From Candidatus Omnitrophota bacterium (GTDB lineage: Bacteria > Omnitrophota > Gorgyraeia > JAFGHF01): 64,000 nucleotides of DNA. The first letter of the stretch is position 1; every line of letters starts with the position of its first letter. Below, piece by piece: positions 13,259 through 38,995 of the stretch. The stretch is from the NCBI GenBank assembly GCA_016939375.1, contig JAFGHF010000063.1, forward strand, positions 2,119-66,118. The letters run 5' to 3'. Below the pieces are notes generated by a model. The model was not told where the DNA came from, searched no databases, and worked only from the letters and a program-made list of their open reading frames with translations. Both the position numbers and the translations under genes were made by a program.

Positions 13259-13290
13259 GCCGTCCGCTTTTTTATTTACACTCCATTTTA
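13259..13290. terminator. Palindromic hairpin between the PilP-like gene and mnmG
   Basis: GGACGGCcaaacgattgagaGCCGTCC; T-run on the plus strand, weaker U-run on the minus strand. Confidence 0.35.
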
Positions 13291-13686
13291 CTCTATTACT
13301 AAGACTTCTTGACTTACGCCATCACTTAAGATTACTCTGTTCTCTTCGATGCGTTCCACCTTCATACCGCCGATCTCGTCCCCGGCATGCACTACCTCGC
13401 CGTTTATCAAGGCATAAGGAGATTCCTCGTCCCAGATAACTCCGGAAAGGTTAAGCTGGACCCTGGCCTCGGCCTCTTCACTGGGCCAGACAAAAGGATT
13501 CCTGCCCCATTCTTTATAAGCCGTTCTTTTTTTATCCTCTAAGTTCGGTAATTCCACAGTTTTATTTGCTAAAGGAGCAAGGGCGTTTGAAGAAGACTGT
13601 CCTTTTTTTGTGCCTTTGGGCAGCCAGATCACCAGCGCCACTACCACAAGAACGGCAAGAATCGCGATCCCTTGAATCTTCTTCAT
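13288..13686 (-). CDS. PilP-like pilus assembly protein (small, N-terminal TM/signal, C-terminal beta domain); hypothetical
   Basis: N-terminal hydrophobic segment and C-terminal LSGVIWDEESPYALINGEVVHAGDEIGGMKVERIEENRVIL, resembling PilP/GspC HR-type domains. Position is directly after pilO. Confidence 0.4.
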   Translation of the reverse strand: MKKIQGIAILAVLVVVALVIWLPKGTKKGQSSSNALAPLANKTVELPNLEDKKRTAYKEWGRNPFVWPSEEAEARVQLNLSGVIWDEESPYALINGEVVHAGDEIGGMKVERIEENRVILSDGVSQEVLVIE

Positions 13687-13687
13687 C

Positions 13688-14230
13688 TTATTCCGGCTCC
13701 ATATATAGTTTGACCGTCATATCCACGTCTAACTTAGCCAAGGCGCCTTTAGGCCGCACAGAGAACGCCGCTACTTCCCCCACAGTGAGCGGAAATTCCT
13801 CTATATAAACGAGAAATTGCCCCAGGCCCCTGTAGTCACATTCGAGCTTAAGTTCGATGGGTAAGACACTAAAATTTCCTTCTTCATAACTCTGTTCATC
13901 AGCGGGCGTGATCGAAATGAATTTAAGGCCTAATTGCCCGCCATAGGCAGTGATATCATCGATAGCCAAAGAAACGTCTTTTTGCTTCATCAAATCTTTA
14001 GCCAAATCTATCTTTTTTAAAGAATCAATGGCTTTGCGCTGAGAGATAAGCTGGCCGTCTAAGCTGTTTAAGTAATTTTTTGTCCGGCTCAACCTTAAAG
14101 CCAAAGGACGATGGGCGATGAGCAGGACCAAGATGACCACGAATATAGCCAAGCCATAAATAATAAACTGCATCTGGCGCTTATCCAGGCTATTTTTTAA
14201 TTTGTTTATACTCTCTTTTATATCGCTCAT
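13688..14230 (-). CDS. pilO: Type IV pilus assembly protein PilO
   Basis: 180 aa with one TM, a coiled-coil and a C-terminal PilO-like region. Operon position is after pilMN. Confidence 0.6.
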   Translation of the reverse strand: MSDIKESINKLKNSLDKRQMQFIIYGLAIFVVILVLLIAHRPLALRLSRTKNYLNSLDGQLISQRKAIDSLKKIDLAKDLMKQKDVSLAIDDITAYGGQLGLKFISITPADEQSYEEGNFSVLPIELKLECDYRGLGQFLVYIEEFPLTVGEVAAFSVRPKGALAKLDVDMTVKLYMEPE

Positions 14231-14232: not shown

Positions 14233-15825
14233 TTATTTTAAACTCAGTTTAAGTTCAAATTGATATAACCCTTGCGCGGTGGCGTTTTTTGTAGTAACTA
14301 ATTTCACTTCTTCAAAGATGCCTTTTTCCAAAGTCTTCATGCACTCGGTAAGCAGTTTTTCTTCTGATGTCTTAGAGGGTTTTATCTCGCCGGCAAGCTG
14401 AACGCTATTTTGGGCGGCCTTCATCTTAGTCAGGCGTATCTGCTCAGGCACACAATTGCCGATTTCCTTTAGGACATCGCTCCAATAGATACGCTTATTT
14501 AAGGCATCGACCAAAAATGCCTGCTTGTTTACCTGCCCTATCCTGGGCTTTAACGCGCCTAACTCCAGCTCGGCCGCGGCCAGGCGCTTAAGATCCGTAC
14601 CCAGCTTGATCCTCATGCCCACATAGCTTAAAATCAATATCACAAAGACCGCAGCCATCAGGGCTTTGATAGAGGAGCGCTCGATCAATATTTTGGTCTC
14701 TTCTTTGATCTCTACCGGCAAGAGGTTTATTGAGTCTTTTGCGCTCTGGGCCACACCGATGGCCTGGGCAAACCTATGTGCCTGGGTAGCGTTATTTTCC
14801 AAAAGATAAGGGGCTAGGCTTGAGACATCTATAAAAGGGTTGCCCAATTCAACGGGAATGCCTAAGTTTTCATTAAGCTGTTTGGCCAGGCCTTTTAAAT
14901 CACTGCCGCCCCCCAAAAGGATCAACCTCTCTACCTTGATGCCTTGTTCGCTCTCTCTATAGAAGTCAAAAGACCTCTCTATCTCCTCAATAAGTTTTTC
15001 CACATTCGGGCGCAAAAGCGACAAAAGCTGCATGCTGGTCAACTTACCTTCAAGCACTTGCGAAGTCGCGCTCTCGGGTATGCCGTATTTTCTTTTGATC
15101 TTTTCCGCCTGGGCAAAGTTCAACTGGATCTTGCCCAACTCCGAAGCCAACACTTGGGTCATCGCTTTTGTAAATTCTCTGGCGGCCACCGGTAATTTGC
15201 GGCTAAAAGCGGCTTTCCCCTTCTGAAAGATAAAAAGTTCGCTTAGGCTATGTCCGATATCTAAAATCGCGGTGGTCTTCTGTCCTTCTGAGCCCAGCCC
15301 GGCGATGACATCATCAAGGACGAAACCGGCCTGGGTAAAAAGATGCGGTTTCAGACCCAATTGGCCAAGCAGGCTGATATAATTGTTTATAGTCGCCTGC
15401 GGAGAGCAGGCTACTAAGATCTTCAGTTTTTTTGCTCCCGATTCGCTGACTTCCTCGAGGACCTTAAAGTCCAATACGGATTCGTCAACGGGAAATGAGA
15501 TAAAATCCTTCATCTCCCATTTAAGGGCGGGGATTATCTCCGCTTTGGGCATATAAGGAATGGTGATCACCCTGGTGCAGCTTTGCGCACAGTTGACCAC
15601 CACATTGATATCACTCTCCTGGGCATTGATAGATTTGAACAGTTCTTTCAAGGCCTCCAATTGCGCCACAGGAGTATCTTTTTCTAAATTTATCTCTTTT
15701 AAGACCAGCTGAGACAGCTGTAATTTGCCTTCGGCGTGCACAAATTTGGCCAGCTTGATAGCGGCCGTGCCTATATCCAGGCCGATAACACTTTTCTTTC
15801 TTGTAAAGAATTTCGGTTTGACCAT
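14233..15825 (-). CDS. pilMN: PilM-PilN fusion protein
   Basis: N-terminal actin-like PilM (SVIGLDIGTAAIKLAKF...), then INLLP (the PilN N-terminal PilM-binding motif) in-frame without a start codon, then a TM helix and the PilN periplasmic region. 530 aa in total. Confidence 0.8.
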   Translation of the reverse strand: MVKPKFFTRKKSVIGLDIGTAAIKLAKFVHAEGKLQLSQLVLKEINLEKDTPVAQLEALKELFKSINAQESDINVVVNCAQSCTRVITIPYMPKAEIIPALKWEMKDFISFPVDESVLDFKVLEEVSESGAKKLKILVACSPQATINNYISLLGQLGLKPHLFTQAGFVLDDVIAGLGSEGQKTTAILDIGHSLSELFIFQKGKAAFSRKLPVAAREFTKAMTQVLASELGKIQLNFAQAEKIKRKYGIPESATSQVLEGKLTSMQLLSLLRPNVEKLIEEIERSFDFYRESEQGIKVERLILLGGGSDLKGLAKQLNENLGIPVELGNPFIDVSSLAPYLLENNATQAHRFAQAIGVAQSAKDSINLLPVEIKEETKILIERSSIKALMAAVFVILILSYVGMRIKLGTDLKRLAAAELELGALKPRIGQVNKQAFLVDALNKRIYWSDVLKEIGNCVPEQIRLTKMKAAQNSVQLAGEIKPSKTSEEKLLTECMKTLEKGIFEEVKLVTTKNATAQGLYQFELKLSLK

Positions 15826-15844: not shown

Positions 15845-16669
15845 TTACCAAAAAGTGACGAATTTCCCCAGGCCCAAGCTCACCCCCGGAGCTGAGCCGG
15901 TATCATAAGCCTCAAGCTCATTTACTTCCGGCCGGTTCCCGTTGACATTAAGTTTAAGATAACGCGCTGTTACCGAATCGAAGCTGACCGCGCCGCCGGG
16001 ACTCTCCACAGGGTTACTTACCGGCTGATAAGCGACATTATCTGTAGAATATTGTATCTGATATGAAGCGATCTGGTTGCCGTCAAATACTATCTTATCA
16101 AAATCGATCTGGCTGGCAAAATCGTGTTTGAGCCAGGAGCCGTTGCTTATGTTAGATTTCCATTTAGTATTACTGAGCCCATCGTTTGATTTATTGGCGG
16201 TATTTCCTCCTTGCGCCGAAGACGCGGAAGCCACGGCAGTCAAAGAAAGGTTGGGCCCATCTCCCCCAGCCGATACCTGTATATTTCGCTGCACGGCTTT
16301 TCTTTTGGCTATAGGATCATTATCATCGGGGATATAGCCTTCCGATTCGATTGTATATGTGCCGTCACCGTTATCGACAGTGGTGACGGTATACGTCCCT
16401 TCATAAGGGCCCTCTCCAAAAGGCTCATCTTCCTCGCCCCAGCCCACCGGCTCTTGGCCAATGGTCAGGGCCCATCTTGCTTTGGCTATCCCTGCCTCGG
16501 CTATATAAAAGGCCTGCATGTTGCGCAACCCCGCAGCGGAAGACCTTATTTCATAATGGACCATGGTCACAAAGGCCAGGACAACTACTGTCAGGCTGAT
16601 CAAGGTTATAAAGACAAAAATAAGCGCTGCTCCTGTTCTTTCTTTCGCGACTCCTGCATTCATCATCAT
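15845..16669 (-). CDS. PilX-like minor pilin with a C-terminal F5/8 type C (discoidin) carbohydrate-binding domain
   Basis: PilX_N-like N-terminus (ERTGAALIFVFITLISLTVVV), then a discoidin-like C-terminus (SNTKWKS...SWLKHDF...QIQYSTDNVAY...ARYLKLNVNGNRPEVNELEAY). Confidence 0.65.
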   Translation of the reverse strand: MMMNAGVAKERTGAALIFVFITLISLTVVVLAFVTMVHYEIRSSAAGLRNMQAFYIAEAGIAKARWALTIGQEPVGWGEEDEPFGEGPYEGTYTVTTVDNGDGTYTIESEGYIPDDNDPIAKRKAVQRNIQVSAGGDGPNLSLTAVASASSAQGGNTANKSNDGLSNTKWKSNISNGSWLKHDFASQIDFDKIVFDGNQIASYQIQYSTDNVAYQPVSNPVESPGGAVSFDSVTARYLKLNVNGNRPEVNELEAYDTGSAPGVSLGLGKFVTFW

Positions 16670-17178
16670 TGATTCCTGGCATATACGCTGGAGCTTAAAG
16701 TAAAGCTTTCCTCGGCCTTATTCATATCAAGAGAAATCGTAATCACCCGGATAGAGTCGCGCTTAGACTGTGAAGCGACATCCGCAGGCAAACTCATTAG
16801 GTCGTTATCCACATCGCGATAGGCAAGCGCAAAATCTTCCACATCAGATGCCAATGTCGTCTGGGTTGCCCCTTCTGTCCTGATCAGCTTGTTTGAGTTG
16901 ATTCCAAAAGCCACTGTCTCATCGCTGCCGTTGTCATCTAAGTCGGCCGTAAATGTTATTGCGTCTTCGTCGGCATCGGTAATACTGCTGGCCTGGCCCA
17001 GCTCACGCACCATCCGCTCCATGGCCAGAGAACTCTCTGATCTGATCTGACTGCGGTCTCTACTAGTGCCCCATACTCTTAAGCCCACGACAAAAACCCA
17101 GAGGGCCGAGACCACCAGCACGGAAAAAAGGGCCATTACTATTATTAATTCTATTAAAGTAAAACTTTTTTTACTCAA
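16666..17178 (-). CDS. Prepilin-type N-terminal cleavage/methylation domain minor pilin
   Basis: KKSFTLIELIIVMALFSVLVV class III signal with Glu+5. The -1 residue is Ser rather than Gly. Confidence 0.65.
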   Translation of the reverse strand: MSKKSFTLIELIIVMALFSVLVVSALWVFVVGLRVWGTSRDRSQIRSESSLAMERMVRELGQASSITDADEDAITFTADLDDNGSDETVAFGINSNKLIRTEGATQTTLASDVEDFALAYRDVDNDLMSLPADVASQSKRDSIRVITISLDMNKAEESFTLSSSVYARNQ

Positions 17179-17600
17179 TTTTTAGAGATATATGTCGCCA
17201 AGGCAACAGATATTTCATCAGATTTATATGTCCAATACGTCTTCACGATTACTTTTTTAAGGTCTATCTGGGGCTCGCTAACGATGACCTCTCTCTGAAA
17301 ACCGGGGAATCCGACTATATCCGCTTTAGCCTCATCGACGACTTCCGTATCAAAATCCAGGTTTTTAAACTCTTCCATCCTCTGCTGGGCCAAGTTCATG
17401 GCCACAGTCGTGCTCTCGGCATCATAACTGCTCACCAAGCCTGTGCTGAAAAGCCCTACCACAAAGACGACCCCCAGCACCATGATGATCAGGGTAATCA
17501 GGATTTCCAGCAATGTAAAAGCACGCCTCGTGATTCGTGATTCGCAGTTCGATATATTTATCACTTGCGTAAGCTCTTTATTAGGTTGGTTCATAAGCAT
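17175..17600 (-). CDS. Pseudopilin (GspI/PilV-like)
   Basis: RRAFTLLEILITLIIMVLG; the -1 residue is Ala; long N-terminal leader. Confidence 0.6.
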   Translation of the reverse strand: MLMNQPNKELTQVINISNCESRITRRAFTLLEILITLIIMVLGVVFVVGLFSTGLVSSYDAESTTVAMNLAQQRMEEFKNLDFDTEVVDEAKADIVGFPGFQREVIVSEPQIDLKKVIVKTYWTYKSDEISVALATYISKN

Positions 17601-17621: not shown

Positions 17622-17667
17622 AGGGACAGTTCTCCGATTGGCGCAAGAACCGGTCTTGATTTTTAGA
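17622..17667. repeat. Copy B of the ~41-46 nt element (pilin 3' UTR / intergenic)
   Basis: gggacagttctccgattggcgcaagaaccggtcttgatttt; same orientation as copy A. It is followed on the plus strand by a small CCCTC...GAGGG hairpin around a palindromic CTCTATATAGAG. Confidence 0.7.
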
Positions 17668-18127
17668 AGCCGCCGGTGCCGCTGGTGCCGTTGGAGATAT
17701 AAATATCATCATCGGGAGTGCCTTGAATAGCTCCTGTCCCGTTTACTCCCGTAATATCCGCCGCGCCGTCAGGGCCTACAGAAAAGATGACGTAGTAATC
17801 TGAATTGGTGCCGGCATCAGTGGCATATCTATATTGCACACCGGCGTCAAAGGGGTCATTGAGTATCTGGCCGATGATCTGCGGCGAAGCACCGGTAATG
17901 GCCGATTGCCAGCTGGTATTCACCGCCGCGCCCTGGCTGGGATATTGCCTGCTATTATGTATATAATATGACTCTACCGCTGCCGCCAGGCCACGCAACT
18001 CTCCCGCCGCCTTGGCTATATTACCTTCCTCCTGCATGCCCCTGAAGCGAGGCAGGGCAATACCGATTAAAATAGCAATCACGGTTATTACTATTAAAAG
18101 CTCGATGATAGTAAAACCTCTTTTCAT
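17663..18127 (-). CDS. Type IV major pilin / GspG-like major pseudopilin
   Basis: The true start is the internal ATG, giving MKRGFTIIELLIVITVIAILIGIALP (canonical G|FTxxE). An AAGGGGGAG RBS lies upstream. ~155 aa. Confidence 0.85.
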   Translation of the reverse strand: MKRGFTIIELLIVITVIAILIGIALPRFRGMQEEGNIAKAAGELRGLAAAVESYYIHNSRQYPSQGAAVNTSWQSAITGASPQIIGQILNDPFDAGVQYRYATDAGTNSDYYVIFSVGPDGAADITGVNGTGAIQGTPDDDIYISNGTSGTGGF

Positions 18128-18221
18128 TGCTCCCCCTTGTGTTTTTATTCCCTTTTTATATATTTTACAATCTTCAAAGAAGTTAGGCAACTTATATTTA
18201 TAAGTCCACTTATTATTCGTT

Positions 18222-19436
18222 TTATCGTCTAAGCAGCTTTATCATGTCAAACATAGGCAGAAGCATAGAGGCCATAATAAAGGCTACTATCGCGCCCATG
18301 ATGACCAAAAATACGGGCTCCAGGACAGTGGTGATCTTCTTTATGCTATAGTTTATGGCCCGGTCATAAAAATCACTGATCTTGTTCAACATCCCCTCTA
18401 GGTTTCCCGATTCCTCCCCCACAGAAATCATCTGTACTGTGTCTGGGGGAAATTCCGCGCTTACTTTGAGAGATTCAGAAAGCTTCTCCCCTTTTTCCGC
18501 AGCCATGCGCATTTGATAGATGACTTGGCCTAAGACTTCATTATCCACCACATCGCGGACTATATCTAAGGATTGCAAAATAGGCACACCGCTAGCAATT
18601 AAGGTAGAGAGCGTGCGCGCGAAGCGGGAAATGCAAGTTTTGCGTACCAGGGGCCCGATGACCGGAAGTTTTAGAGACAATCTGTCTATTTTTATCCTGC
18701 CGGCGGTGGTCTTTATATAAGCCTTAAAACCCACTCCTATTAAGCCGATGGCCAAAATCATAAGGTACCAAAACTGTTTAATGAAATTACCCAGGTGATA
18801 AAGTAAAATAGTGGCCGCCGGCATTGCTATCCCGGCGCGCTGGAATATTTCCACAAATTTGGGGATGACAAAGGTCACTATAAAGACAATCACTAAAGTG
18901 GCCGCGACAATCAAAATCGCGGGATAAAAAAGGGCCGCCCTTATCTTTTGCCTTAAGTCTTCCTGGGCCTCGGCGAATTCAGCATAGCGGTTGAGCACTT
19001 GGTCTAAATTGCCGCTGGCTTCACCGGCGGCGACCATACTTATGAAAAGCCGGGAGAAAACCCCTGGATACTGGGCAAAGCTTTGGGAAAGACTCAATCC
19101 CCCTTCAACGCTGCGGGCGACATTATCTATGATTTCTTTGAGTTTTCTGTTTTCGACCTGTTTCTTTAGCGTATCTAAACTGGACATTATGCTAAGACCT
19201 GAGTTGAGCATATTGGCCAGCTGAAGGTCAAACATCACTATCTCCTCGGTGCTGATCCTACGCAAGCCTTTACTGAGCTTCTCCAGGCTCACCCCCATTA
19301 AGGCCTCAGCAATATCGATAGGGGCATAGCCCATGCGCTTGAGCTTTTCAGCGACTTCGTCCTTGCTGGCTGCTTCGATAACGCCCTTGACCAGCTTGCC
19401 GCTGTTATCCCTAGCCTTGTAATTGTAATTTGGCAA
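18222..19436 (-). CDS. pilC: Type IV pilus / T2SS platform protein PilC (GspF family)
   Basis: 404 aa; two T2SSF repeats; polytopic. Confidence 0.9.
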   Translation of the reverse strand: MPNYNYKARDNSGKLVKGVIEAASKDEVAEKLKRMGYAPIDIAEALMGVSLEKLSKGLRRISTEEIVMFDLQLANMLNSGLSIMSSLDTLKKQVENRKLKEIIDNVARSVEGGLSLSQSFAQYPGVFSRLFISMVAAGEASGNLDQVLNRYAEFAEAQEDLRQKIRAALFYPAILIVAATLVIVFIVTFVIPKFVEIFQRAGIAMPAATILLYHLGNFIKQFWYLMILAIGLIGVGFKAYIKTTAGRIKIDRLSLKLPVIGPLVRKTCISRFARTLSTLIASGVPILQSLDIVRDVVDNEVLGQVIYQMRMAAEKGEKLSESLKVSAEFPPDTVQMISVGEESGNLEGMLNKISDFYDRAINYSIKKITTVLEPVFLVIMGAIVAFIMASMLLPMFDMIKLLRR

Positions 19437-19438: not shown

Positions 19439-21058
19439 TTAGGCCTCCTCAGTAACGCGCATGACTTCTTCCTGAGTAGTTATGCCCTGCTTGACCTTCT
19501 CATCGCCGTCCTGGCGCAGTGTGTGCATTCCCGCTTTTATCGCGGCCTTACGGATATCGTCGGTCGAAGTCTTGGAGTTAGTCAGTTTTCTTATCTCTTC
19601 GCCAGCCAGCATCAATTCAAAAATCCCTTTGCGCCCCTTATAGCCGGTATTGACACAGGAATCGCAGCCTTTTCCTTTACAATCTTTGCAAAGCATGCGT
19701 ACCAGCCTCTGAGCCAATACACCGATCACCGATGAGGCTATCAAAAACGGCTCCACCCCCATATCTATAAGCCTGGTAATCGCTGTCGGCGCGTCATTAG
19801 TATGCAAGGTGGAAAATACCAGGTGTCCCGTAAGCGCTGCCTGGACCGCGATCTCTGCGGTCTCTATGTCACGGATCTCCCCTACCATGATGACGTCCGG
19901 ATCCTGCCTTAAAATAGAACGCAGGCCCGTTGAGAATTCCAAACCCACCTTGTGATTGACCTGCATCTGGCGCACTCCGGGCAGATGATATTCAATCGGG
20001 TCCTCAATAGTGACGATATTCTTTTCTTCTGAATTGATTATATTTAAAGAGGCATAGAGAGTGGTCGTCTTGCCCGAACCGGTAGGGCCGGTGACCAAGA
20101 TTATCCCGTGCGGCCGCTTAATCAACTCTTCATATTTTTTTAATGTATCGGGCAAAAACCCCAGCTGCTCCAGCTTTAAAATAATACTGCTTCTATCCAA
20201 AAGGCGCAGGACCACATTCTCGCCATAAATGGTGGGCACGCAGGAAACGCGGATATCTATCTGCCGGCCTTCCATTTTGATCTGGAAACGGCCGTCTTGC
20301 GGTACCCTGTGCTCGGCGATATCCATATCGGAAAGTATCTTGATGCGCGAGACGATCGCCGATTGTAAAAACTTGGGCGGAGAAATACGCTCGTGCAATA
20401 CTCCATCTATCCTATAGCGGGTGCGTAAGGTCTCTTCTTCCGGTTCGATATGGATGTCACTGGCTCCCTGGCGCACAGCCTCGATGATCATCAAGTTGAC
20501 CATCTTGATGACCGGAGGCTCTTCTACTATCCCCTGGAGCTTTTTCAAATCCTTTTCCTGGCCCGGCTTGATCTTCAATGCCTCGACCTCTAAGCTACTG
20601 ATTACTTCTTCCATAGTGCCACGGGCCCGGTAATGTTCCTCCAAGGCCTTTTTGACTTCCGTTTCTGTAGCTATAGCCGGGTCGATCTCCATGCCAGTCT
20701 TAAGCCTCAATTCATCCAGGGCAAAGACATTCATAGGATCGGCCATGGCCACAGTCAGGCTCTTGCCGATTTTTAATACGGGGATAAGTATGTATTTTCT
20801 GGCCAAATCTTCGGGAACTAATTCGATTATCTTAGGGTCGATCAGGTAATTCTTAAGTTCGACATGCGGTATATTCAACTGTTGGCTTAAAAATACGGCT
20901 AAGTCCGTCTCGCTGATCACGCCTTTGGATACCAACACCTGGCGCAAGGGCTTGGCATTGGCCTTGGCTTCGATCTCGGCCTGTTTAAGCTGCTCGGCAT
21001 TGATAATGCCCTTTTCCAGAAGGCTCTGGCCCAGGGACTTCTTATCTTTCTTGGCCAT
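19439..21058 (-). CDS. pilB: Type IV pilus assembly ATPase PilB (GspE family) with an N-terminal MshEN/T2SSE_N domain
   Basis: Walker A GPTGSGKTTT, a tetracysteine CKDCKGKGCDSC, and N-terminal LGQSLLEKGIINAEQLKQAE / LRQVLVSKGVISETDL motifs. Confidence 0.95.
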   Translation of the reverse strand: MAKKDKKSLGQSLLEKGIINAEQLKQAEIEAKANAKPLRQVLVSKGVISETDLAVFLSQQLNIPHVELKNYLIDPKIIELVPEDLARKYILIPVLKIGKSLTVAMADPMNVFALDELRLKTGMEIDPAIATETEVKKALEEHYRARGTMEEVISSLEVEALKIKPGQEKDLKKLQGIVEEPPVIKMVNLMIIEAVRQGASDIHIEPEEETLRTRYRIDGVLHERISPPKFLQSAIVSRIKILSDMDIAEHRVPQDGRFQIKMEGRQIDIRVSCVPTIYGENVVLRLLDRSSIILKLEQLGFLPDTLKKYEELIKRPHGIILVTGPTGSGKTTTLYASLNIINSEEKNIVTIEDPIEYHLPGVRQMQVNHKVGLEFSTGLRSILRQDPDVIMVGEIRDIETAEIAVQAALTGHLVFSTLHTNDAPTAITRLIDMGVEPFLIASSVIGVLAQRLVRMLCKDCKGKGCDSCVNTGYKGRKGIFELMLAGEEIRKLTNSKTSTDDIRKAAIKAGMHTLRQDGDEKVKQGITTQEEVMRVTEEA

Positions 21059-21064: not shown

Positions 21065-21442
21065 TTACTCCTTGATGAGTCTTTTTATTTTATCCAGCAG
21101 TTCCTGTGGCTCAAAAGGCTTGGCCACATAATCATCCGCCTTGACATACTGGCACATCTCCTCGATACGCTTTTTCCAGTCTTCCTTGGCGGTGAAAATG
21201 ATCACGGGGATAGAGGCTGTCTCTTCGGTATGCTTGATCTCATAGCAGATATCATATCCGTTATTATCAGGCAACATAATATCCAATATTATCAGGTCTG
21301 GCTTTTTTTCCATGATCACTGCTTGGGCGTTTGCGCCGGTATCCAACTGCATCACTTCATAACCGTTAAACTCGAGGCGCTCTTTCAGCAATTCGAATAA
21401 ATATAACTCATCATCGATAATCAATATTTTTTTGCCTGACAT
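21065..21442 (-). CDS. Single-domain response regulator (CheY-like receiver), R1
   Basis: DD...D(54)...T...K receiver residues; 125 aa. Confidence 0.9.
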   Translation of the reverse strand: MSGKKILIIDDELYLFELLKERLEFNGYEVMQLDTGANAQAVIMEKKPDLIILDIMLPDNNGYDICYEIKHTEETASIPVIIFTAKEDWKKRIEEMCQYVKADDYVAKPFEPQELLDKIKRLIKE

Positions 21443-21443
21443 A

Positions 21444-21818
21444 TTATTCCCGCTCCTTTAGAAGTTTTTCTATTTTTCCCAAAAGCTCATCGGGTTTGAA
21501 GGGCTTAGTGATATATGCATCGGCACCGACCTCCTGGCCCAATTTTACATCTTCTTCTTGGGCCCGTGCCGAGAATAGTATTATGGGCACATCGATATAG
21601 TTGGTATCCCTTTTTAACAGGCCACAGACCTTGTATCCATCCATCTGCGGCAACATCAAATCCAAGATGATCAAATCCGGTTTTTCTTTATGCGCGATAT
21701 CAAGGGCCATCTTGCCATCGAAAGCGGTAATCACCTCATAGCCATTGGCCTTCAGCCTTGACTCTACCAGCTTTACAATATGGGGTTCATCATCGACAAC
21801 CAGTATTTTCTTGGGCAT
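21444..21818 (-). CDS. Single-domain response regulator, R2
   Basis: Receiver-only, 124 aa; paralog of 27703-28071. Confidence 0.9.
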   Translation of the reverse strand: MPKKILVVDDEPHIVKLVESRLKANGYEVITAFDGKMALDIAHKEKPDLIILDLMLPQMDGYKVCGLLKRDTNYIDVPIILFSARAQEEDVKLGQEVGADAYITKPFKPDELLGKIEKLLKERE

Positions 21819-21832
21819 AATAACACCTTTTT

Positions 21833-22195
21833 CTAAATATATATTTTGATCGCATCCAGCAGCTTCTGAGGCTCAAAAGGCTTAAAGAGATAATCAGTCA
21901 CCCCTAAGTCTTTGGCCGCTAGAATAGGATCGGTCTGGTCTTCGCAGGTAAGCATGATCACCGGAGTAAATCTTGTCTCTGGCTTAGAGCGTATCCTGCG
22001 CAAGGCCTCCAGACCATCCACGCCCGGCATGTGCACATCGAGCAGGATCAGATCAGGCCGCTCGGCTAAGGCCTTGACTACCGCCTCTTCTCCGTTTGTG
22101 GCTGTAGCCACCTCATAATAGTTGGCCTCTAACCGTGATTTTACTACTTTTATGATATTCGGCTCGTCGTCGACGACTAATATCTTCTTGGCCAT
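21833..22195 (-). CDS. Single-domain response regulator, R3
   Basis: Receiver-only, 120 aa. Confidence 0.9.
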   Translation of the reverse strand: MAKKILVVDDEPNIIKVVKSRLEANYYEVATATNGEEAVVKALAERPDLILLDVHMPGVDGLEALRRIRSKPETRFTPVIMLTCEDQTDPILAAKDLGVTDYLFKPFEPQKLLDAIKIYI

Positions 22196-22555
22196 TTACG
22201 CTTTCCCTATGTACTTCTCGATCTTCTCTAAAAGTTCCTCGGCCTTAAAAGGTTTGACCATGTAGTCATTTATCCCTTCAACAGCGAATAGGTCCTGCAT
22301 CGCCCCCTGGCCGGTGAGTACGATTACCGGTATCTCTCGTGAGGCCTTTCTTAGCCTGCGCACAAACGTATAGCCATCCATGGCAGGCATAAGTATATCC
22401 AGGATTATCAGGTCCGGATTTTCCTGCTCTACCCTTTCTAAGCCTTCTTTGCCGTTTGAGGCGGCGACTACTTCATAACCGTTGGCCTGCAGGCGGGACT
22501 TTAAGAGTTGGACAATGTGCGGTTCATCGTCGATCACTAAGATTTTTTTAGCCAT
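22196..22555 (-). CDS. Single-domain response regulator, R4
   Basis: Receiver-only, 119 aa; close paralog of R5. Confidence 0.9.
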   Translation of the reverse strand: MAKKILVIDDEPHIVQLLKSRLQANGYEVVAASNGKEGLERVEQENPDLIILDILMPAMDGYTFVRRLRKASREIPVIVLTGQGAMQDLFAVEGINDYMVKPFKAEELLEKIEKYIGKA

Positions 22556-22912
22556 TTATTCTTTCCTTAAATTTTTTTCGATCTTTTTTAGCAACTCGTC
22601 CGCATTGAATGGTTTTACGACGTAATCGGTTATCCCTTCTATAGCAAATAGATCTTTCATGCCTGATTTAGCTGTAAGCACGATGATGGGGATATCCCCA
22701 TCAGCCTTCTTTAGCCTCTTCACAAACGTATAGCCATCCATCTGCGGCATCAGGATGTCCAGGACAATCAGATCTGGATTTTCTTTTTGAAATCTCTCCA
22801 GGCCCTCTTCTCCGTTTGTAGCCGAAACCACCTCATAGCCGTTAGCTTGCAGGCGCGAGATAAGCACCTTTATTATATCAGGCTCATCGTCAATTACCAG
22901 GATTTTACTCAT
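22556..22912 (-). CDS. Single-domain response regulator, R5
   Basis: The true start is the internal MSKILVIDDEP. The longer track ORF overlaps the upstream kinase. Confidence 0.85.
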   Translation of the reverse strand: MSKILVIDDEPDIIKVLISRLQANGYEVVSATNGEEGLERFQKENPDLIVLDILMPQMDGYTFVKRLKKADGDIPIIVLTAKSGMKDLFAIEGITDYVVKPFNADELLKKIEKNLRKE

Positions 22913-22928
22913 TTTTTCCTCTTTTCGT

Positions 22929-24086
22929 TTAGCTTTTGGGTAAGGTAAAAATAAACTTTGTCCCCTGATCCAATTTGCTTTCCGCCCGGATCTTGCCTTT
23001 ATGCAACTGGACAATCCCTTTGGCGATGGAAAGTCCAAGGCCCGTACCTTTCTCGCCCGGGCCAGCCATGCGGCCGAATTGCTCAAATTTATCGAAAAGT
23101 TTGGGCAGATCCTCCGGTGCGATACCAGGCCCTGTGTCGGCTACGGAGCATTCTACTGTCTCCCCCTCATCGCGCACAGCAATCTCTACATGGCCTTTTT
23201 GGGTAAATTTCAAGGCATTGTTGAGTAGATTGGCAAAGACCTGAGTAATCTTATCTTTATCGGCTGAGATCTCTATTTTTTCAGCCGGCAGATTTGTCTT
23301 TATCTCTAAACTTTTCTTTTGGGCAAGAGGGCCAAAGGTAGAGCCGACCGATCTGGCCAAGGCCACGATGTCAAGGGGTGCCTTTTTGATCTCAACCTTT
23401 CCTGCTTCTATCTTAGATATATCCAGAAGATTGTCAATTATTCTTTTTAAGCGGTCGATATCCTCCAGGCACATAGTCAAAAATTCCTGTTGTTCTTTAG
23501 TGGTGCCCCCCAGAATACCGTCTAAGACCTGAGACACTGTCTCTCTTATCGTAGTCAGGGGAGTGCGCAATTCATGGGATACCGTGGAAATAAAATCGCT
23601 TTTTATCTGGTTGAGCTTCATAAGCTGCTTGTTGGCTACCTGTAACTTCTCGGCGTAAGCCCGGGTCTGCGCTTCCAGGCGTTCTCTTTCTTTTTTATTC
23701 CCGTAATTTTCGACAGTTCTCTTCAGCGCCAGGGACAGGCTGCCCTTGGGCACATCGTCTTTGACCACATAATCGTAGGCCCCTATTTTCATCACCTCAG
23801 CGGCTATCTTTTCATCACCCTCTCCGGTAGCCATAATCACCGGTATATCCACATTATTTTCTTTGAGTTTTTTCACCATCTCCAATCCGGTCATGCCCGG
23901 CATCTTATAATCCACGACAATCAGGTCAAACGTATCGGCGCTTATCTTATCTAATCCCTCAGCCCCTGAGCGGCAGACGGTGACTTCGATATCGAAATCC
24001 TCATTGCCAAGCAAGGCTTCTCTCTCTATCTCCCGGTCTATGGGGCTGTCATCCACTAAGCATACTTTTAGTTTTTTCTTTGACAT
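22929..24086 (-). CDS. Cytoplasmic hybrid histidine kinase (REC-HisKA-HATPase)
   Basis: N-terminal receiver, then HisKA FISTVSHELRTPL and HATPase GTGLGLSIAKGIV. No TM. Confidence 0.9.
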   Translation of the reverse strand: MSKKKLKVCLVDDSPIDREIEREALLGNEDFDIEVTVCRSGAEGLDKISADTFDLIVVDYKMPGMTGLEMVKKLKENNVDIPVIMATGEGDEKIAAEVMKIGAYDYVVKDDVPKGSLSLALKRTVENYGNKKERERLEAQTRAYAEKLQVANKQLMKLNQIKSDFISTVSHELRTPLTTIRETVSQVLDGILGGTTKEQQEFLTMCLEDIDRLKRIIDNLLDISKIEAGKVEIKKAPLDIVALARSVGSTFGPLAQKKSLEIKTNLPAEKIEISADKDKITQVFANLLNNALKFTQKGHVEIAVRDEGETVECSVADTGPGIAPEDLPKLFDKFEQFGRMAGPGEKGTGLGLSIAKGIVQLHKGKIRAESKLDQGTKFIFTLPKS

Positions 24087-26897: not shown

Positions 26898-27697
26898 TTT
26901 AACTCTATCCTGCTTTTTAGGGCGGCTATTCGGTCTTGCAGCTCTTTCATCCTGAACTCTCTATTTATCGTCGCCTCACGGAACCTCTCCAGCTCATCCA
27001 GCTTTTCTTTAAGTTCGCGGGTGCGTTCTTCTACTTTTTTCTCCAACTCCTGGTTTAGTTTTCTGATAGTGTCCTGGGCCCTTCTGCTTTCGGTATTGTC
27101 AATCATGGAAAATATCAATCCCTGCTCCAAGTTATCTTTATTAATCGCCCTTAATATCACCAGCGTGGGCACGCGGTGGCCATCCATGTGTACGTAATCG
27201 TATTCATAACTGACACGGTCGAGCCTTACTATATTTTGATAGATGAGTTCCTGATTGACTCGCCGATACTCCTCTTCGCTTGGGTAGATAAAAGCCAGGG
27301 AAGGTTCGCTCATCCACCTCTCTACCGGCCAACCTAAGATATCCTCGGCGGCCTTGCTTATCCAGATGACTTTATCATTTTTGACGAAAAAAATGGCAGC
27401 CGGTGAATCTCCTAATATCGCCGACAAAAGCTTGCGCGAGCTATCCATCTTCTCCATTTTTTCGATTGTCTGGCGGTATTGCGAATCCGCGGTATTGAGC
27501 ATAAACAAAAGCGCTATCGTGGCCAATCCTATACCTACCAACTGAATAAATACTTCTACCCAGCTAAGTGAACCGGCAGGCATCTTGAAAAGCAGGTGTG
27601 GTATATCGAATAACTTGGCCAGTAGCGCCAAAAGTATCAATAGGGCAAACATCACCCCAGCGATCAGCTGTGGACGAAAACCACCATTATTCTCCAT
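26894..27697 (-). CDS. Membrane-anchored PAS domain protein with a C-terminal coiled-coil (no kinase domain)
   Basis: Two N-terminal TM helices, a PAS-like segment and a C-terminal LERFREATINREFRMKELQDRIA coiled-coil. Confidence 0.55.
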   Translation of the reverse strand: MENNGGFRPQLIAGVMFALLILLALLAKLFDIPHLLFKMPAGSLSWVEVFIQLVGIGLATIALLFMLNTADSQYRQTIEKMEKMDSSRKLLSAILGDSPAAIFFVKNDKVIWISKAAEDILGWPVERWMSEPSLAFIYPSEEEYRRVNQELIYQNIVRLDRVSYEYDYVHMDGHRVPTLVILRAINKDNLEQGLIFSMIDNTESRRAQDTIRKLNQELEKKVEERTRELKEKLDELERFREATINREFRMKELQDRIAALKSRIELK

Positions 27698-27702
27698 GGG
27701 CC

Positions 27703-28071
27703 CTATTCCCCTAATAACTGTTTTATCTTACCAAAAAGCTCCTCTGGCTCAAAAGGTTTAGCTATATAGGCATCCGCACCAACCTCATCTCCCAGCTTTC
27801 TGTCTTCTTCCTGGGCCTTGGCCGAGAAAAGTATGATCGGAATATCTTTGTATCTTGAGTCTTTTTTAAGCAAAGCGCAGACTTTATACCCGTCCATTTT
27901 AGGAAGCATCAGATCCAATATTATCAAGTCGGGATTTTCATTCCGCGCTTTATCTAATGCGGCCTGGCCGTCATTGGCAGAAATGACTTCATAGCCTGCC
28001 GCTTCGAACCTCATCGTCATCATCTCTACCAGCTGAGCCTCATCGTCAACAAGTAAGATCTTTTTGCTCAT
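27703..28071 (-). CDS. Single-domain response regulator
   Basis: 122 aa receiver; paralog of R2. Confidence 0.9.
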   Translation of the reverse strand: MSKKILLVDDEAQLVEMMTMRFEAAGYEVISANDGQAALDKARNENPDLIILDLMLPKMDGYKVCALLKKDSRYKDIPIILFSAKAQEEDRKLGDEVGADAYIAKPFEPEELFGKIKQLLGE

Positions 28072-28080
28072 CTGCTCCTC

Positions 28081-30390: not shown

Positions 30391-30408
30391 TTCTTATGCC
30401 TATAAGTT

Positions 30409-30774
30409 TTAGAGGAGTTTTTTGGCTGCTTCCAAAAGCGGAGTATGGTCGCTGGTCTTGACGCAATAATCGTCAGCGCCGGCCTTTCTGGCCTCTACCG
30501 CGTCTATGGCATCGACGTTACCGGTCATGATGATTATTTTAGGCTTATCCGGCCCCGAGGCCTCTCTGATCCTGCGGCAGGCCTCAAAACCGCTTATACC
30601 CGGAAGCAGAGTATCCAAAACGATTATATCCGGTTTTTCGCAAGCCGCTTTTTCCACACCCAGCTCACCGGTCTCAGCTATAATTATGTCCTCAAAACCG
30701 GCTTTAGCCAAAAAGCGTTTCATAATCTTTCTGTCCTGTTCATTATCATCGATAATCAAAAGTTTTTTGCCCAT
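30409..30774 (-). CDS. Single-domain response regulator
   Basis: 121 aa receiver. Confidence 0.9.
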   Translation of the reverse strand: MGKKLLIIDDNEQDRKIMKRFLAKAGFEDIIIAETGELGVEKAACEKPDIIVLDTLLPGISGFEACRRIREASGPDKPKIIIMTGNVDAIDAVEARKAGADDYCVKTSDHTPLLEAAKKLL

Positions 30775-30777
30775 ATC

Positions 30778-31263
30778 TCACTCCTTGGGGATATCCGGAT
30801 TCGGTAATTTATTAATCATATTCCAATAAAAATTAAATCCTTCCACAACTTTTACAAAGTCGTCGTAATTAAGCGGCTTGGGGATAAAGCTGGCCGCTCC
30901 GTCTCTATAACTTCTGGCGATATCCTCTTGGTCTCTGGAGGAAGTAAGCATGACTATAGGGATATAGTTGTAGCGGATATCTTTTTTTAAGGCCTCTAAT
31001 ACCTGGAAGCCGTCCATCTTTGGCAGATTGATATCTAAAAGGATCAGATCGGGGCGAGGAAATTTCTCCTTGTCCTGGTATTTACCCTCGTGACGGATAA
31101 AATCCAACGCCTCTTCTCCGTCATTGACCACATATATATTATTTTTAATCTTCACCTTGGAAAAAGCTCTTAAGGTTATTTTTATATCTGTCTCATTATC
31201 TTCGACCAAAAGGATGTCTAAAGGTTTGCTATTTTTTTCCTCTTGGCTGAAATGCTCCTCCAT
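30778..31263 (-). CDS. Single-domain response regulator (start uncertain)
   Basis: Receiver domain LDILLVEDNETD...D...K. The start is probably the internal MEEHFSQ. The track ORF extends to 31338, overlapping the upstream kinase. Confidence 0.8.
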   Translation of the reverse strand: MEEHFSQEEKNSKPLDILLVEDNETDIKITLRAFSKVKIKNNIYVVNDGEEALDFIRHEGKYQDKEKFPRPDLILLDINLPKMDGFQVLEALKKDIRYNYIPIVMLTSSRDQEDIARSYRDGAASFIPKPLNYDDFVKVVEGFNFYWNMINKLPNPDIPKE

Positions 31264-31300
31264 AGATCTCTCCTCTTCTTTAGGACCTTTCGTGTTGTAA

Positions 31301-37924: not shown

Positions 37925-38995
37925 TTAAATATACTCTTTATGCCTTAACTGCAATAAGAGTTCTTCTTTTTTATCGGAATTGTCCAAAGCCGATTGCGGG
38001 GATATTTTTTTCTGCTCCACAAGCTCAAGCAGGCACTGGTTAAAGGTCTTCATCCCGTAAATCTCACCGGTAGCGATATATTTAGGCAACTCCCACAATT
38101 TATTTTCCCTGATCAATCTTGATACTGTGGGGCTTAAGGTCATCACCTCATAGGCCGGAGCCAGCCCTTCGGTATCAATACGGGGAATAAGCCGCAAAGA
38201 GACTACGCCTTTAAGCAAATTGGACAATTGATTGAATAAAAAATGGTGCTGCTCGGGCGGGAAGAAGTTCACGATCCTCTCCACGGTAGAGGCGGCATCG
38301 ACGGTATGCACGGTAGAAAGTACCAACACTCCTGTTTCCGCGGCCGTAAGCGCTGCGTGGCAGGTATGCTCGTCCCTGATATTGCCGATGAAGATGACAT
38401 CGGGAGAGTGGATAGTAAATTGCTTGAGCGCATCGGCATAGGAGAAGACATCCTTGCCTATGTCTCTTTGGTTTATTATCGATTTTTTATCTGTAAAGGT
38501 AAACTCGATCGGCTCCTCTACAGCCAAGATGTGTCTTCTAAAATTCTGATTTATGTGTTCGATCATCGCGGCAATGGTGGTAGACTTGCCGCTGCCGGTG
38601 ATCCCGGTAAGCAAGACCAAGCCGCGCCTTTCGTTGCAGAATTTTTTTAACACCTTACCCGGGAGATTGAGATCCTCGAATGTGCCGATATTCAAATTGA
38701 TCTTCCTGATGACCATGGCCAGGGTACTGCGCTGATAAAAGATGCCTACGCGGAACCTCCAGCTACCCTCATAGGTGGTGGCGAATTCATAGCTCTTATT
38801 TTGCTGCAGCTGCTCTTTCCCCGCCTTTCCGATCATCTCAAAGACGATCTTCTCCACATCATCATTATCAAAGAGATGGTCTTTGAGCGTGACCACTTCG
38901 GTGTACACCCTTCCTTTTAGATAGCTTCCCACGCTGATAAATAAGTCGGAGACTTCCCTTTCGATCATTATAGAGAGGATCTCATTAAAGTTCAT
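37925..38995 (-). CDS. pilT: Twitching motility / pilus retraction ATPase PilT
   Basis: 356 aa; Walker A GITGSGKSTT, PilT family. Confidence 0.9.
   Translation of the reverse strand: MNFNEILSIMIEREVSDLFISVGSYLKGRVYTEVVTLKDHLFDNDDVEKIVFEMIGKAGKEQLQQNKSYEFATTYEGSWRFRVGIFYQRSTLAMVIRKINLNIGTFEDLNLPGKVLKKFCNERRGLVLLTGITGSGKSTTIAAMIEHINQNFRRHILAVEEPIEFTFTDKKSIINQRDIGKDVFSYADALKQFTIHSPDVIFIGNIRDEHTCHAALTAAETGVLVLSTVHTVDAASTVERIVNFFPPEQHHFLFNQLSNLLKGVVSLRLIPRIDTEGLAPAYEVMTLSPTVSRLIRENKLWELPKYIATGEIYGMKTFNQCLLELVEQKKISPQSALDNSDKKEELLLQLRHKEYI

What the first reader, a model, noticed from the sequence alone, without database searches (positions are those of the whole stretch)
15845..16669. PilX-like minor pilin carrying a C-terminal discoidin (F5/8 type C) domain: candidate pilus-tip lectin adhesin
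The N-terminus has the PilX_N-type hydrophobic segment typical of tip-associated minor pilins. The C-terminal ~140 aa reads as an F5/8 type C (discoidin) carbohydrate-binding fold (NTKWKS, SWLKHDF, QIQYSTDNVAY, ARYLKLNVNGN...ELEAY). It is encoded between the pseudopilins and pilMN. A modular lectin fused to a minor pilin would place a glycan-binding domain at the pilus tip, for example for attachment to host or partner-cell polysaccharide. This would be relevant if the organism is an epibiont or predator.
Basis: partly seen in the sequence, partly recalled or inferred. Interest (0 to 1): 0.55.

Follow-up and report, generated by a model that had tools for sequence, protein, structure and literature searches.

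The report
Pilus-tip pilin with inserted lectin-fold head
An uncultured Omnitrophota bacterium encodes a minor pilin of the kind that caps the pilus tip, with a sugar-binding-type (discoidin/CBM32) domain spliced into the middle of its pilin fold; this is a plausible but untested attachment device, and related lineages have deleted the domain several times.

Summary
ORF 15845-16669 (-) encodes a 274-aa protein with an F5/8 type C domain (51.4 bits, cut-off 28.2) and a CBM32 fold (Foldseek probability 1.00). Its N-terminus has the GspK/PilX signature: basic leader, Gly at -1, no Glu5 in any of 73 homologs. It lies fourth after three Glu5-bearing pilins, in an operon intermediate between type IVa pili and type II secretion.

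One correction: the discoidin is not C-terminal. "Headless" orthologs (137-154 aa) sit in the same operon slot and end with the same tail (LGQGxFxTSW). The domain (residues ~137-264) is therefore an insertion, as in GspK and ComZ.

Headless lineages nest among headed ones three times (bootstrap 94-99%), with different junctions. The head is an accessory module that is repeatedly lost.

The family has about 74 clusters. All named members are Omnitrophota except one record labelled Planctomycetales. NCBI calls it only "discoidin domain-containing protein".

Most likely it is a tip-displayed ligand-binding head, probably for glycans. Ligand, tip position, cleavage and surface exposure are all inferred, and no secretin lies in the window. 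CofB shows that a tip lectin fold can bind protein instead.

This is a new variant of the known modular-pilin kind, of moderate interest.

The parts
15845..16669 (-). Whole gene: 274-aa K/X-class minor pilin with inserted discoidin. Its ATG overlaps the stop codon of the upstream pilin gene (ATGA).
   Evidence: 100% identical to an NCBI 'discoidin domain-containing protein [Ca. Omnitrophica bacterium]'
16631..16669 (-). Residues 1-13: short basic leader ending in Gly13 (putative prepilin-peptidase site, KERTG|AALIF).
   Evidence: Gly at -1 in 66 of the 70 members covering that column (Ala in 4); K/R within 6 aa before it in 70/73
16463..16630 (-). Residues 14-69: alpha1 helix. The hydrophobic N-half has no Glu at +5. 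The C-half carries the PilX_N-type motif NMQAFYIAEAGxAKARWALT, the most conserved stretch of the protein.
   Evidence: AF2 helix 6-69 at pLDDT >90; Glu5 in 0/73; conservation 0.79; aligns to ComZ 6qvi
16262..16462 (-). [quoted passage not shown]
   Evidence: AF2 strands 78-84, 91-99, 104-113 and 121-134; weak Foldseek matches to GspI/EpsI/XcpV
15878..16261 (-). Residues 137-264: inserted discoidin / CBM32 beta-sandwich with its linkers. This segment is absent from headless orthologs.
   Evidence: Pfam; PDB profile hit 4zy9 at 6e-16; Foldseek probability 1.00, TM 0.74-0.77; Ca-site motif D163 73/73, T/S168 72/73, W170 73/73, E251 73/73; deletion boundaries
15848..15877 (-). Residues 265-274: conserved C-terminal hairpin LGLGKFVTFW (family consensus LGQGxFxTSW). 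It belongs to the pilin module.
   Evidence: Conserved in the family; retained directly after beta4 in headless orthologs; AF2 strands 263-265 and 269-273
16666..17178 (-). 170-aa prepilin with Glu5 (S|FTLIE), in the position of GspJ/PilW.
   Evidence: N_methyl 27.7 bits; 39/40 homologs carry N_methyl; no similarity to GspJ beyond alpha1
17175..17600 (-). 141-aa prepilin with Glu5 (A|FTLLE), in the position of GspI/PilV.
   Evidence: weak PilV, ComGE and GspI hits; PDB hits over the N-terminal helix only
17663..18190 (-). GspG-like major pilin (MKRG|FTIIE). The likely true start is Met22, at 18127.
   Evidence: T2SSG 29.6 bits against a cut-off of 21; full-length alignment to GspG 5wda at 1.9e-8
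18222..19436 (-). Platform protein (GspF/PilC).
   Evidence: T2SSF; GspF 400 bits against a cut-off of 424
19439..21058 (-). Extension ATPase (PilB/GspE) with an N-terminal MshE-type c-di-GMP-binding motif.
   Evidence: PilB 640.5 (cut-off 675.65), GspE 616.2 (cut-off 630.25), c-di-GMP motif 43.4 (cut-off 38)
14233..15825 (-). PilM-PilN fusion (GspL-like architecture).
   Evidence: PilM_2 125 bits and PilN 24.6 bits; TIGR01175 158.4 against a cut-off of 133
13688..14230 (-). PilO.
13288..13686 (-). Small bitopic protein with weak T2SSB / GspC / PilP-like hits; last gene of the operon.
37925..38995 (-). PilT-family retraction ATPase, unlinked to the operon.
   Evidence: TIGR01420 376.8 bits against a cut-off of 319.1

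Best explanation
The gene encodes the Glu5-less, K/X-class minor pilin of a type IV filament machine in an Omnitrophota bacterium. Such subunits (GspK, PilX) are thought to be the first subunit laid down and so to cap the distal tip. Here a CBM32-type discoidin beta-sandwich (residues ~137-264) is spliced into the loop between strand beta4 and the C-terminal hairpin of the pilin fold. The two ends of a CBM32 meet at one pole and its ligand loops sit at the other. The insert should therefore project from the pilin with its binding loops pointing away from the filament. The most likely role is a built-in tip adhesin that binds a glycan on a surface or partner cell. It would do the job that a separate PilY1 protein does in classical type IVa pili. 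The head is an accessory module: orthologous operons work with a headless version, and the head has been deleted at least three times. Shown here: domain identities, fold, insertion topology, the pilin-class signature, operon position, conservation and repeated loss. Inferred: prepilin cleavage, tip position, surface exposure, and the nature of the ligand.
For: Discoidin: Pfam 51.4 bits against a cut-off of 28.2, present in 72-73 of 73 homologs. PDB profile hits are to CBM32 modules (4zy9 at 6e-16). The AF2 model has pLDDT 92.5 and Foldseek gives probability 1.00 and TM 0.74-0.77 to CBM32s that bind chitosan, galactose, pectate or alginate. The structural Ca-site motif is invariant (motif defined in PMC5651945). 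Pilin class: Gly at -1 in 66 of the 70 members covering that column, Glu5 in 0 of 73, basic leader. All three upstream pilins have Glu5. Lack of Glu5 is the shared hallmark of PilX and GspK, which are placed at the tip (PMC7541494). PilX_N hits 21 of 73 members, best 1.4e-9. The pilin-module profile reaches ~130-aa proteins annotated PilX or PulK in other phyla, and ComZ in the PDB. Insertion: headless orthologs keep the tail LGQGxFxTSW right after beta4 and sit in the same operon slot. CBM32 termini converge (PMC5651945). Accessory nature: three headed+headless clades with 94-99% bootstrap, and headless monophyly in 0 of 500 replicates. Context: synteny is conserved down to 35% identity. A PilT gene is in the window. 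No PilY1-sized gene is in the window. Omnitrophota T4aP have been proposed to mediate attachment to hosts (PMC10066038). A lectin-bearing minor pilin at a pilus tip has been demonstrated for S. sanguinis PilC (PMC9934059).
Against: No ligand can be inferred. The Trp that is critical in YeCBM32/AlyQ falls in a loop residue this family lacks, although chitosan-binding DD1 lacks it too. No secretin or prepilin peptidase is in the window, so surface exposure and processing are unverified. The machine is ambiguous: the major pilin is GspG-like, PilM and PilN are fused like GspL, and the ATPase and platform score below the PilB, GspE and GspF cut-offs. The pilin module has no significant structural match to solved pilins (best Foldseek E=0.23-0.9). 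The two partner pilins cannot be shown to be I- or J-type. CofB shows that a lectin fold on a tip pilin can bind a protein rather than a sugar.
Confidence: 0.55

Rival explanations
1. This is a T2SS-like pseudopilus. The filament stays periplasmic and acts as a piston. The discoidin head on the GspK-position subunit binds cargo (a glycoprotein or the cell's own exopolysaccharide) or docks to the secretin, so the function is secretion and not adhesion.
For: The major subunit aligns end to end only with GspG and hits T2SSG. The gene order G-I-J-K resembles gsp operons. The PilM-PilN fusion mimics GspL. The platform's best hit is GspF. The last gene gives weak T2SSB/GspC hits. GspK is proposed to contact T2SS substrates (PMC7541494). 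The J-position pilin has a weak hit to a polysaccharide-secretion pseudopilin, HpsC.
Against: No GspD, GspC-PDZ or GspH is in the operon or window. All Gsp equivalog models score below cut-off. The PilM, PilN and PilO families match. A PilT retraction ATPase is present. TXSScan-based work calls T4aP loci common in Omnitrophota genomes (PMC10066038).
Confidence: 0.2
2. The head is tip-displayed, but the lectin fold is repurposed. It binds a protein (a secreted adaptor or a prey/host surface protein) or membrane lipid, not a carbohydrate.
For: CofB of ETEC type IVb pili carries a tip lectin-fold domain that fails to bind GalNAc and instead anchors the secreted protein CofJ in the expected sugar pocket (PMC6048534). 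The family lacks the YeCBM32-type Trp platform and has a shortened loop there. From general knowledge, eukaryotic discoidin domains (factor V/VIII C2, lactadherin) bind phospholipid. Such domains appear among the weaker PDB hits.
Against: The closest relatives by both sequence and structure are all bacterial carbohydrate-binding CBM32s. The CBM32 structural Ca site is intact. No small secreted-protein gene is conserved next to the pilin in the operons examined.
Confidence: 0.15
3. The protein is never polymerised. It is an uncleaved, membrane-anchored periplasmic lectin that ties the machine to peptidoglycan or another envelope glycan.
For: Cleavage is unproven. The N_methyl motif is not detected in this protein. 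Its only transmembrane segment is the alpha1 helix.
Against: Gly at -1 and a basic leader are conserved. The Glu5-less pattern and fourth-pilin gene position match K/X subunits exactly. Headless orthologs retain the whole pilin module, so the conserved core function lies in the pilin part.
Confidence: 0.05

Closest known systems
GspK, the T2SS tip pseudopilin (E. coli GspK-I-J complex, PDB 3CI0)
   Same: It lacks Glu5 and has Gly at -1. It is encoded last among the pseudopilins. An extra domain is inserted into the pilin fold rather than appended. It is proposed to sit at the filament tip.
   Different: The insert in GspK is an alpha-helical domain of unclear function. Here it is a CBM32 beta-sandwich. 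The NCBIfam GspK model scores 15.4 bits against a cut-off of 130, so this protein is not a GspK ortholog.
ComZ of Thermus thermophilus T4aP (PDB 6QVI)
   Same: It is the best PDB sequence hit of the pilin module (E=0.0098), over the QAFYxAEAGL alpha1 motif. It is a minor pilin with a large effector domain inserted into the beta-sheet, thought to act at the tip (PMC8179133).
   Different: The ComZ insert is a beta-solenoid implicated in DNA binding. Similarity is limited to about 45 residues.
PilX (FimU-PilV-PilW-PilX set) plus the PilY1 adhesin of T4aP
   Same: It has the PilX_N domain and no Glu5, and sits at the top of the priming complex (PMC7541494).
   Different: Classical PilX is headless and holds a separate PilY1 adhesin. 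Here no PilY1 gene is nearby and the putative adhesive domain is built into the pilin. A few PilY1 proteins themselves carry IPR000421 discoidin domains.
Modular pilins PilC (lectin) and PilB (vWA) of Streptococcus sanguinis
   Same: They share the concept of a ligand-binding module presented by a minor pilin at the pilus tip. PilC is a proven glycan binder (PMC9934059; PMC8179133).
   Different: Those are C-terminal grafts on pilins that carry IPR012902 and Glu5, in a monoderm, and the lectin is ConA-like. This protein lacks the IPR012902 motif, so that census would have missed it. The census lists only one IPR012902-IPR000421 protein.
CofB/TcpB type IVb tip minor pilins
   Same: They are tip minor pilins carrying a lectin-fold domain.
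   Different: The fold is H-type lectin, they are trimeric, the extra domains are C-terminal, and they bind a secreted protein and not sugar. This is a caution for the lectin reading.
CBM32 modules (Paenibacillus DD1/DD2, YeCBM32, AlyQ/AlyB, C. perfringens NagH/NagJ/GH89)
   Same: They share the fold, the Ca-site motif and the converging termini.
   Different: Those are appended to glycoside hydrolases or lyases. Identity is 20-25%. The ligand loops differ, so specificity cannot be transferred.

Membership tests
F5/8 type C (discoidin) / CBM32 | Pfam PF00754 score above the gathering cut-off | tested here: met
   51.4 bits against 28.2; 72 of 73 homologs match
F5/8 type C (discoidin) / CBM32 | Beta-sandwich fold superposable on solved CBM32 modules | tested here: met
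   AF2 pLDDT 92.5; Foldseek probability 1.00, TM 0.74-0.77 to 4zy9, 4zxe and 4zz5
F5/8 type C (discoidin) / CBM32 | Conserved structural Ca2+ site (Asp and Thr five residues apart in the DG..T.W motif) | tested here: met
   D163 in 73/73, T/S168 in 72/73, W170 in 73/73; motif as described in PMC5651945. Tested at sequence level only.
F5/8 type C (discoidin) / CBM32 | Binds carbohydrate | not testable with these tools
   The YeCBM32-type Trp is absent. R/K246 is conserved in 69/73 in the ligand-region loop. No ligand can be assigned.
PilX_N / K-class minor pilin (GspK, PilX) | Pfam PF14341 above the gathering cut-off | tested here: inconclusive
   The window protein scores 23.1 bits against 25.5. 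21 of 73 family members hit at E<=1e-3, best 1.4e-9. The module profile reaches proteins annotated PilX or PulK.
PilX_N / K-class minor pilin (GspK, PilX) | Class III signal peptide: short basic leader, Gly at -1, hydrophobic alpha1 | tested here: met
   Gly in 66 of the 70 members covering that column, Ala in 4; K/R before it in 70/73
PilX_N / K-class minor pilin (GspK, PilX) | No Glu at mature position 5, unlike the other pilins of the set | tested here: met
   0 of 73 have Glu5. The three upstream pilins have FTIIE, FTLLE and FTLIE. Hallmark as stated in PMC7541494.
PilX_N / K-class minor pilin (GspK, PilX) | Pilin fold (long alpha1 packed on an antiparallel sheet) matching solved pilins | tested here: inconclusive
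PilX_N / K-class minor pilin (GspK, PilX) | Encoded after the other minor pilins in the operon | tested here: met
GspK (NCBIfam NF037980 equivalog) | Score above the equivalog cut-off | tested here: not met
   15.4 bits against 130, N-terminal 57 residues only
PilX_N / K-class minor pilin (GspK, PilX) | Forms a tip complex with I- and J-type minor pilins | tested here: inconclusive
   Two Glu5-bearing pilins precede it. Their globular domains show no similarity to GspI/J or PilV/W. No multimer modelling tool was available.
Modular pilins sensu Raynaud et al. 2021 (IPR012902 + extra domain) | N-terminal IPR012902 / PF07963 methylation motif | tested here: not met
   No N_methyl hit for this protein, even at E<=1. 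It works like a modular pilin but escapes that operational definition.
Type IVa pilus machine | PilB, PilC, PilM, PilN, PilO, PilT, PilQ secretin | tested here: inconclusive
   PilM, PilN, PilO and PilT are met. PilB scores 640.5 against 675.65. No PilQ, PilP-proper or PilY1 is in the window.
Type II secretion system | GspD secretin, GspC, GspE/F/G equivalogs | tested here: not met
   No secretin is present. GspE scores 616 against 630, GspF 400 against 424, and GspG 51.8 against 88.85.

The most novel reading that the evidence does not exclude
The discoidin head is the host- or prey-recognition determinant of the pilus in ultra-small, possibly host-dependent Omnitrophota. It would be a lectin built directly into the tip-capping pilin in place of PilY1. 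Its variable loops would set partner specificity, and its repeated clean deletion would mark lineages that changed or abandoned a partner.
Probability: 0.25. Interest if true: 0.65.

Novelty: new variant of a known kind. Interest (0 to 1): 0.45.

Why it matters
Omnitrophota are uncultured nanobacteria. Their proposed dependence on host cells rests on gene inventories such as type IV pili, Tad pili and giant adhesin-like ORFs. A conserved, small and easily expressed tip pilin with a recognisable ligand-binding head gives a concrete, testable handle on what these cells attach to. For type IV filament biology it adds a third kind of domain (a lectin fold) inserted into a K/X-class tip pilin, beside the alpha-domain of GspK and the beta-solenoid of ComZ. 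Natural head-on and head-off orthologs separate the assembly role of the pilin from the effector role of the insert. It also shows that censuses of modular pilins based on the N-methylation motif miss Glu5-less tip pilins.

Tried and rejected
- **Foldseek of the isolated pilin module against the PDB.** Nothing was significant (best E=0.23). Pseudopilins GspI, EpsI and XcpV appear only at probability 0.57-0.77, so the pilin fold is not proven structurally.
- **Testing the two upstream pilins for GspI/GspJ identity.** I tried single sequences and a 40-sequence profile. Only the N-terminal helix matches known pilins, so the labels I and J are positional only.
- **A special relationship to giant multi-discoidin proteins.** These top the whole-library profile search. 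Per-domain identity is only 24-31%, so there is no evidence of recent domain exchange.
- **Reading specificity from liganded CBM32 relatives.** The ligand loops are not conserved and the YeCBM32 Trp is absent, so no ligand call is made.
- **Secretin, prepilin peptidase or PilY1 in the window.** None was found among ORFs of at least 110 aa. The left end of the window is glutamate synthase.
- **A 'symbiotic' F-type ATPase next to the pilus locus**, as reported for many Omnitrophota. None is present in this window.
- **Model coordinates.** They are not exposed, so the packing of the C-terminal hairpin was inferred from headless orthologs instead.

Full report
**1. Observation.** The ORF at 15845-16669 (minus strand) exists and encodes 274 aa. 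Pfam gives F5_F8_type_C at E=1.5e-13, 51.4 bits against a gathering cut-off of 28.2, over residues 147-244. The related F5_F8_type_C_2 (NedA-like galactose-binding) model scores 31.5 bits against 27.8. PilX_N matches residues 13-62 at 23.1 bits, just under its cut-off of 25.5. NCBIfam adds only weak N-terminal hits: GspK 15.4 bits and Verru_Chthon cassette protein A. The gene's ATG overlaps the stop of the upstream pilin gene (ATGA), which implies translational coupling.

**2. Source and family.** The protein is 100% identical to an NCBI entry named only [quoted passage not shown]. There are 74 clusters of full-length homologs (257-294 aa, 35-64% identity), and every one with precomputed Pfam annotation carries the discoidin domain. 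Those that carry a name are Omnitrophota. A scan of one genome per species found 10 loci. All are Omnitrophota MAGs or SAGs except one record labelled Planctomycetales. A whole-library profile search found about 20 family representatives at 50% clustering. The rest of the top hits were giant multi-discoidin proteins, whose domains are only 24-31% identical to this one.

**3. Operon.** All genes are on the minus strand, in this order:
- five single-domain response regulators and several sensor kinases
- an extension ATPase (19439-21058)
- a platform protein (18222-19436)
- a GspG-like major pilin (17663-18190)
- two further prepilins (17175-17600 and 16666-17178)
- the target gene
- a PilM-PilN fusion (14233-15825)
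- PilO (13688-14230)
- a small GspC/T2SSB/PilP-like protein (13288-13686)

This order is conserved in homologs at 58% and at 35% identity.

The machine is intermediate between T4aP and T2SS:
- The ATPase scores 640.5 for PilB (cut-off 675.65) and 616.2 for GspE (cut-off 630.25). It carries an MshE-type c-di-GMP motif at 43.4 bits against 38.
- The platform's best hit is GspF, at 400 bits against 424.
- The major pilin aligns full-length only with GspG 5wda.
- PilM and PilN are fused, as in GspL.
- PilM, PilN and PilO match their T4aP families.
- A true PilT lies at 37925-38995, scoring 376.8 against 319.1.

No secretin, prepilin peptidase or PilY1-sized gene is in the window.

**4. Pilin class.** Across the alignment, the residue before the hydrophobic helix is Gly in 66 of the 70 sequences that cover that column (Ala in 4). 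A Lys or Arg precedes it in 70 of 73. The residue at mature position 5 is never Glu. The three upstream pilins all have Glu5: FTIIE, FTLLE and FTLIE. Being the only Glu5-less pilin of the set is the hallmark shared by PilX and GspK, the subunits placed at the very tip of pili and pseudopili (PMC7541494).

At family level, PilX_N is hit by 21 of 73 members, best E=1.4e-9. A profile of the pilin module alone reaches ~115-180 aa proteins annotated "PilX" or "PulK" in Phycisphaerales, Calditrichaeota, Atribacteria and other Omnitrophota. Its best PDB sequence hit is ComZ, over the motif QAFYxAEAGL (E=0.0098). That alpha1-C motif is the most conserved part of the protein.

Structurally, AF2 predicts a 64-residue helix followed by four strands (pLDDT 90-92). 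Foldseek finds no significant match. GspI-type pseudopilins appear at TM 0.54-0.66. The fold assignment therefore rests on sequence features and predicted secondary structure.

**5. The discoidin.** The profile's best PDB hits are bacterial CBM32 modules. They include chitosan-binding DD1/DD2 (6e-16), alginate-lyase CBM32s, pectate-binding YeCBM32, and C. perfringens galactose/GlcNAc-binding modules. The full-length AF2 model (pLDDT 92.5) matches them with Foldseek probability 1.00 and target TM-scores of 0.74-0.77.

The structural Ca2+ site that is conserved in CBM32s irrespective of specificity (PMC5651945) is intact. D163 is in 73/73 members, T/S168 in 72/73, W170 in 73/73 and E251 in 73/73.

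The ligand region cannot be read. The Trp that is critical in YeCBM32 and AlyQ corresponds to a loop residue this family lacks, although chitosan-binding DD1 lacks it as well. A basic residue (R/K246) is kept in 69/73 in that loop. The most variable positions of the protein are discoidin loops 152-160, 165-167, 173-176, 209-216 and 241-247.

**6. Topology: insertion, not C-terminal fusion.** The family ends in a conserved tail after the discoidin, LGQGxFxTSW, which AF2 predicts as a beta-hairpin. The pilin-module search uncovered "headless" Omnitrophota proteins of 137-154 aa. They are 41-60% identical over the whole module, and they end with the same tail directly after strand beta4, for example ...RRRVEERDAPAPPG-LGQGKFVTSW. 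They occupy exactly the same operon slot, with no leftover DNA.

The discoidin plus linkers (residues ~137-264) is therefore spliced into a loop of the pilin fold. This is the same design as the alpha-domain of GspK and the beta-solenoid of ComZ (PMC8179133). CBM32 termini converge and hydrogen-bond. That geometry suits a loop insertion and places the ligand loops at the pole facing away from the pilin. The last point is inference.

**7. Repeated loss.** In a tree of pilin module plus tail, headless proteins fall into three clades, each with a headed sister 71-79% identical. Bootstrap support is 94%, 98% and 99%, and monophyly of the headless proteins occurs in 0 of 500 replicates.

The junctions differ between clades...ASTN|LGRG...TNLSLR|LGRG...NATL|GQG and ...APPG|LGQG. 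Two of them retain the first residues of the discoidin. Headed forms span the whole tree, including its deepest branches. The simplest reading is therefore an ancestral head that was deleted at least three times. The pilin's core role evidently does not need the head, which marks the head as an accessory effector.

**8. Mechanism.** The best-supported model (confidence about 0.55 overall) breaks down as follows:
- Architecture: about 0.9.
- Tip position: about 0.7.
- Glycan adhesion: about 0.5.

The protein is processed like a prepilin. It is the first subunit of the filament and so sits at the distal tip. There it presents a CBM32 head that binds a glycan on a surface or partner cell, replacing the separate PilY1 adhesin of classical T4aP.

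This agrees with the modular-pilin paradigm, in which S. sanguinis PilC is a proven tip lectin pilin (PMC9934059; PMC8179133). It also agrees with proposals that Omnitrophota T4aP mediate attachment to hosts (PMC10066038).

Rivals:
- A T2SS-like pseudopilus whose head binds cargo or exopolysaccharide (0.2).
- A tip head repurposed for a protein or lipid ligand, as in CofB-CofJ (PMC6048534) (0.15).
- A non-polymerised periplasmic anchor (0.05).

**9. Novelty.** Modular pilins are known. A census of IPR012902-containing proteins lists 264 architectures, including a single IPR012902-IPR000421 protein and two discoidin-bearing PilY1 proteins. This family lacks the IPR012902/N_methyl motif, so that census would have missed it. 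Literature searches for discoidin or CBM32 with pilins found no description of it. It is best classed as a new variant of a known kind: a K/X-class tip pilin with an inserted lectin fold, conserved in one candidate phylum, with natural head-on and head-off orthologs. Interest is moderate at 0.45. It is not surprising in principle, but it is a clean, testable handle on attachment in an uncultured phylum.

Noticed in passing
window 21065-33346 (-): Directly upstream of the pilus genes lie five tandem single-domain response regulators, a hybrid kinase, two Cache/PAS sensor kinases and a kinase fused to GGDEF. The pilus ATPase carries an MshE-type c-di-GMP-binding motif. Together these suggest the filament is under dense two-component and c-di-GMP control. 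Similar RR/HK-GGDEF genes precede the operon in L001 and L013.
   Followed up: partly
window 14233-15825 (-): PilM and PilN are fused in one 530-aa protein, the architecture of T2SS GspL. The fusion recurs in related loci (529-563 aa).
   Followed up: partly
L013 8001-8429; L014 3073-3528: Headless orthologs of the target (142 and 151 aa) occupy the same operon slot. At least three independent deletions of the discoidin occurred, with different junctions.
   Followed up: yes
window 45481-46527 (+): A ParA/MinD-type ATPase (AAA_31, CbiA) carries a C-terminal AMPK1_CBM glycogen-binding module, which is an unusual fusion.
   Followed up: no
window 48500-64000: A block of glycosyltransferases, two sulfatases, phosphodiesterases, a Wzx-like flippase and a PMT_2 mannosyltransferase has lower G+C (0.39-0.41 against 0.45-0.48 elsewhere). 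It is probably a surface-glycan island, possibly horizontally acquired.
   Followed up: no
window 37925-38995 (-): A PilT-family retraction ATPase is encoded 18 kb from the pilus operon, next to TatD and an unannotated 168-aa ORF (37406-37912).
   Followed up: partly
window 62924-63940 (-): A 338-aa ORF has no Pfam hit at E<=1e-5.
   Followed up: no
L001 1-1985: The complete Omnitrophota genome CP070837.1 has a second PilMN-PilO pair about 4 kb upstream of the pilus operon, which suggests two type IV filament systems in one 1.55-Mb genome.
   Followed up: no
window 17663-18190 and 22556-23086 (-): The mechanically listed ORFs are probably too long at their 5' ends. The major pilin most likely starts at Met22 (18127; MKRG|FTIIE). 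The 176-aa response-regulator ORF overlaps the upstream kinase and likely starts at an internal Met.
   Followed up: partly
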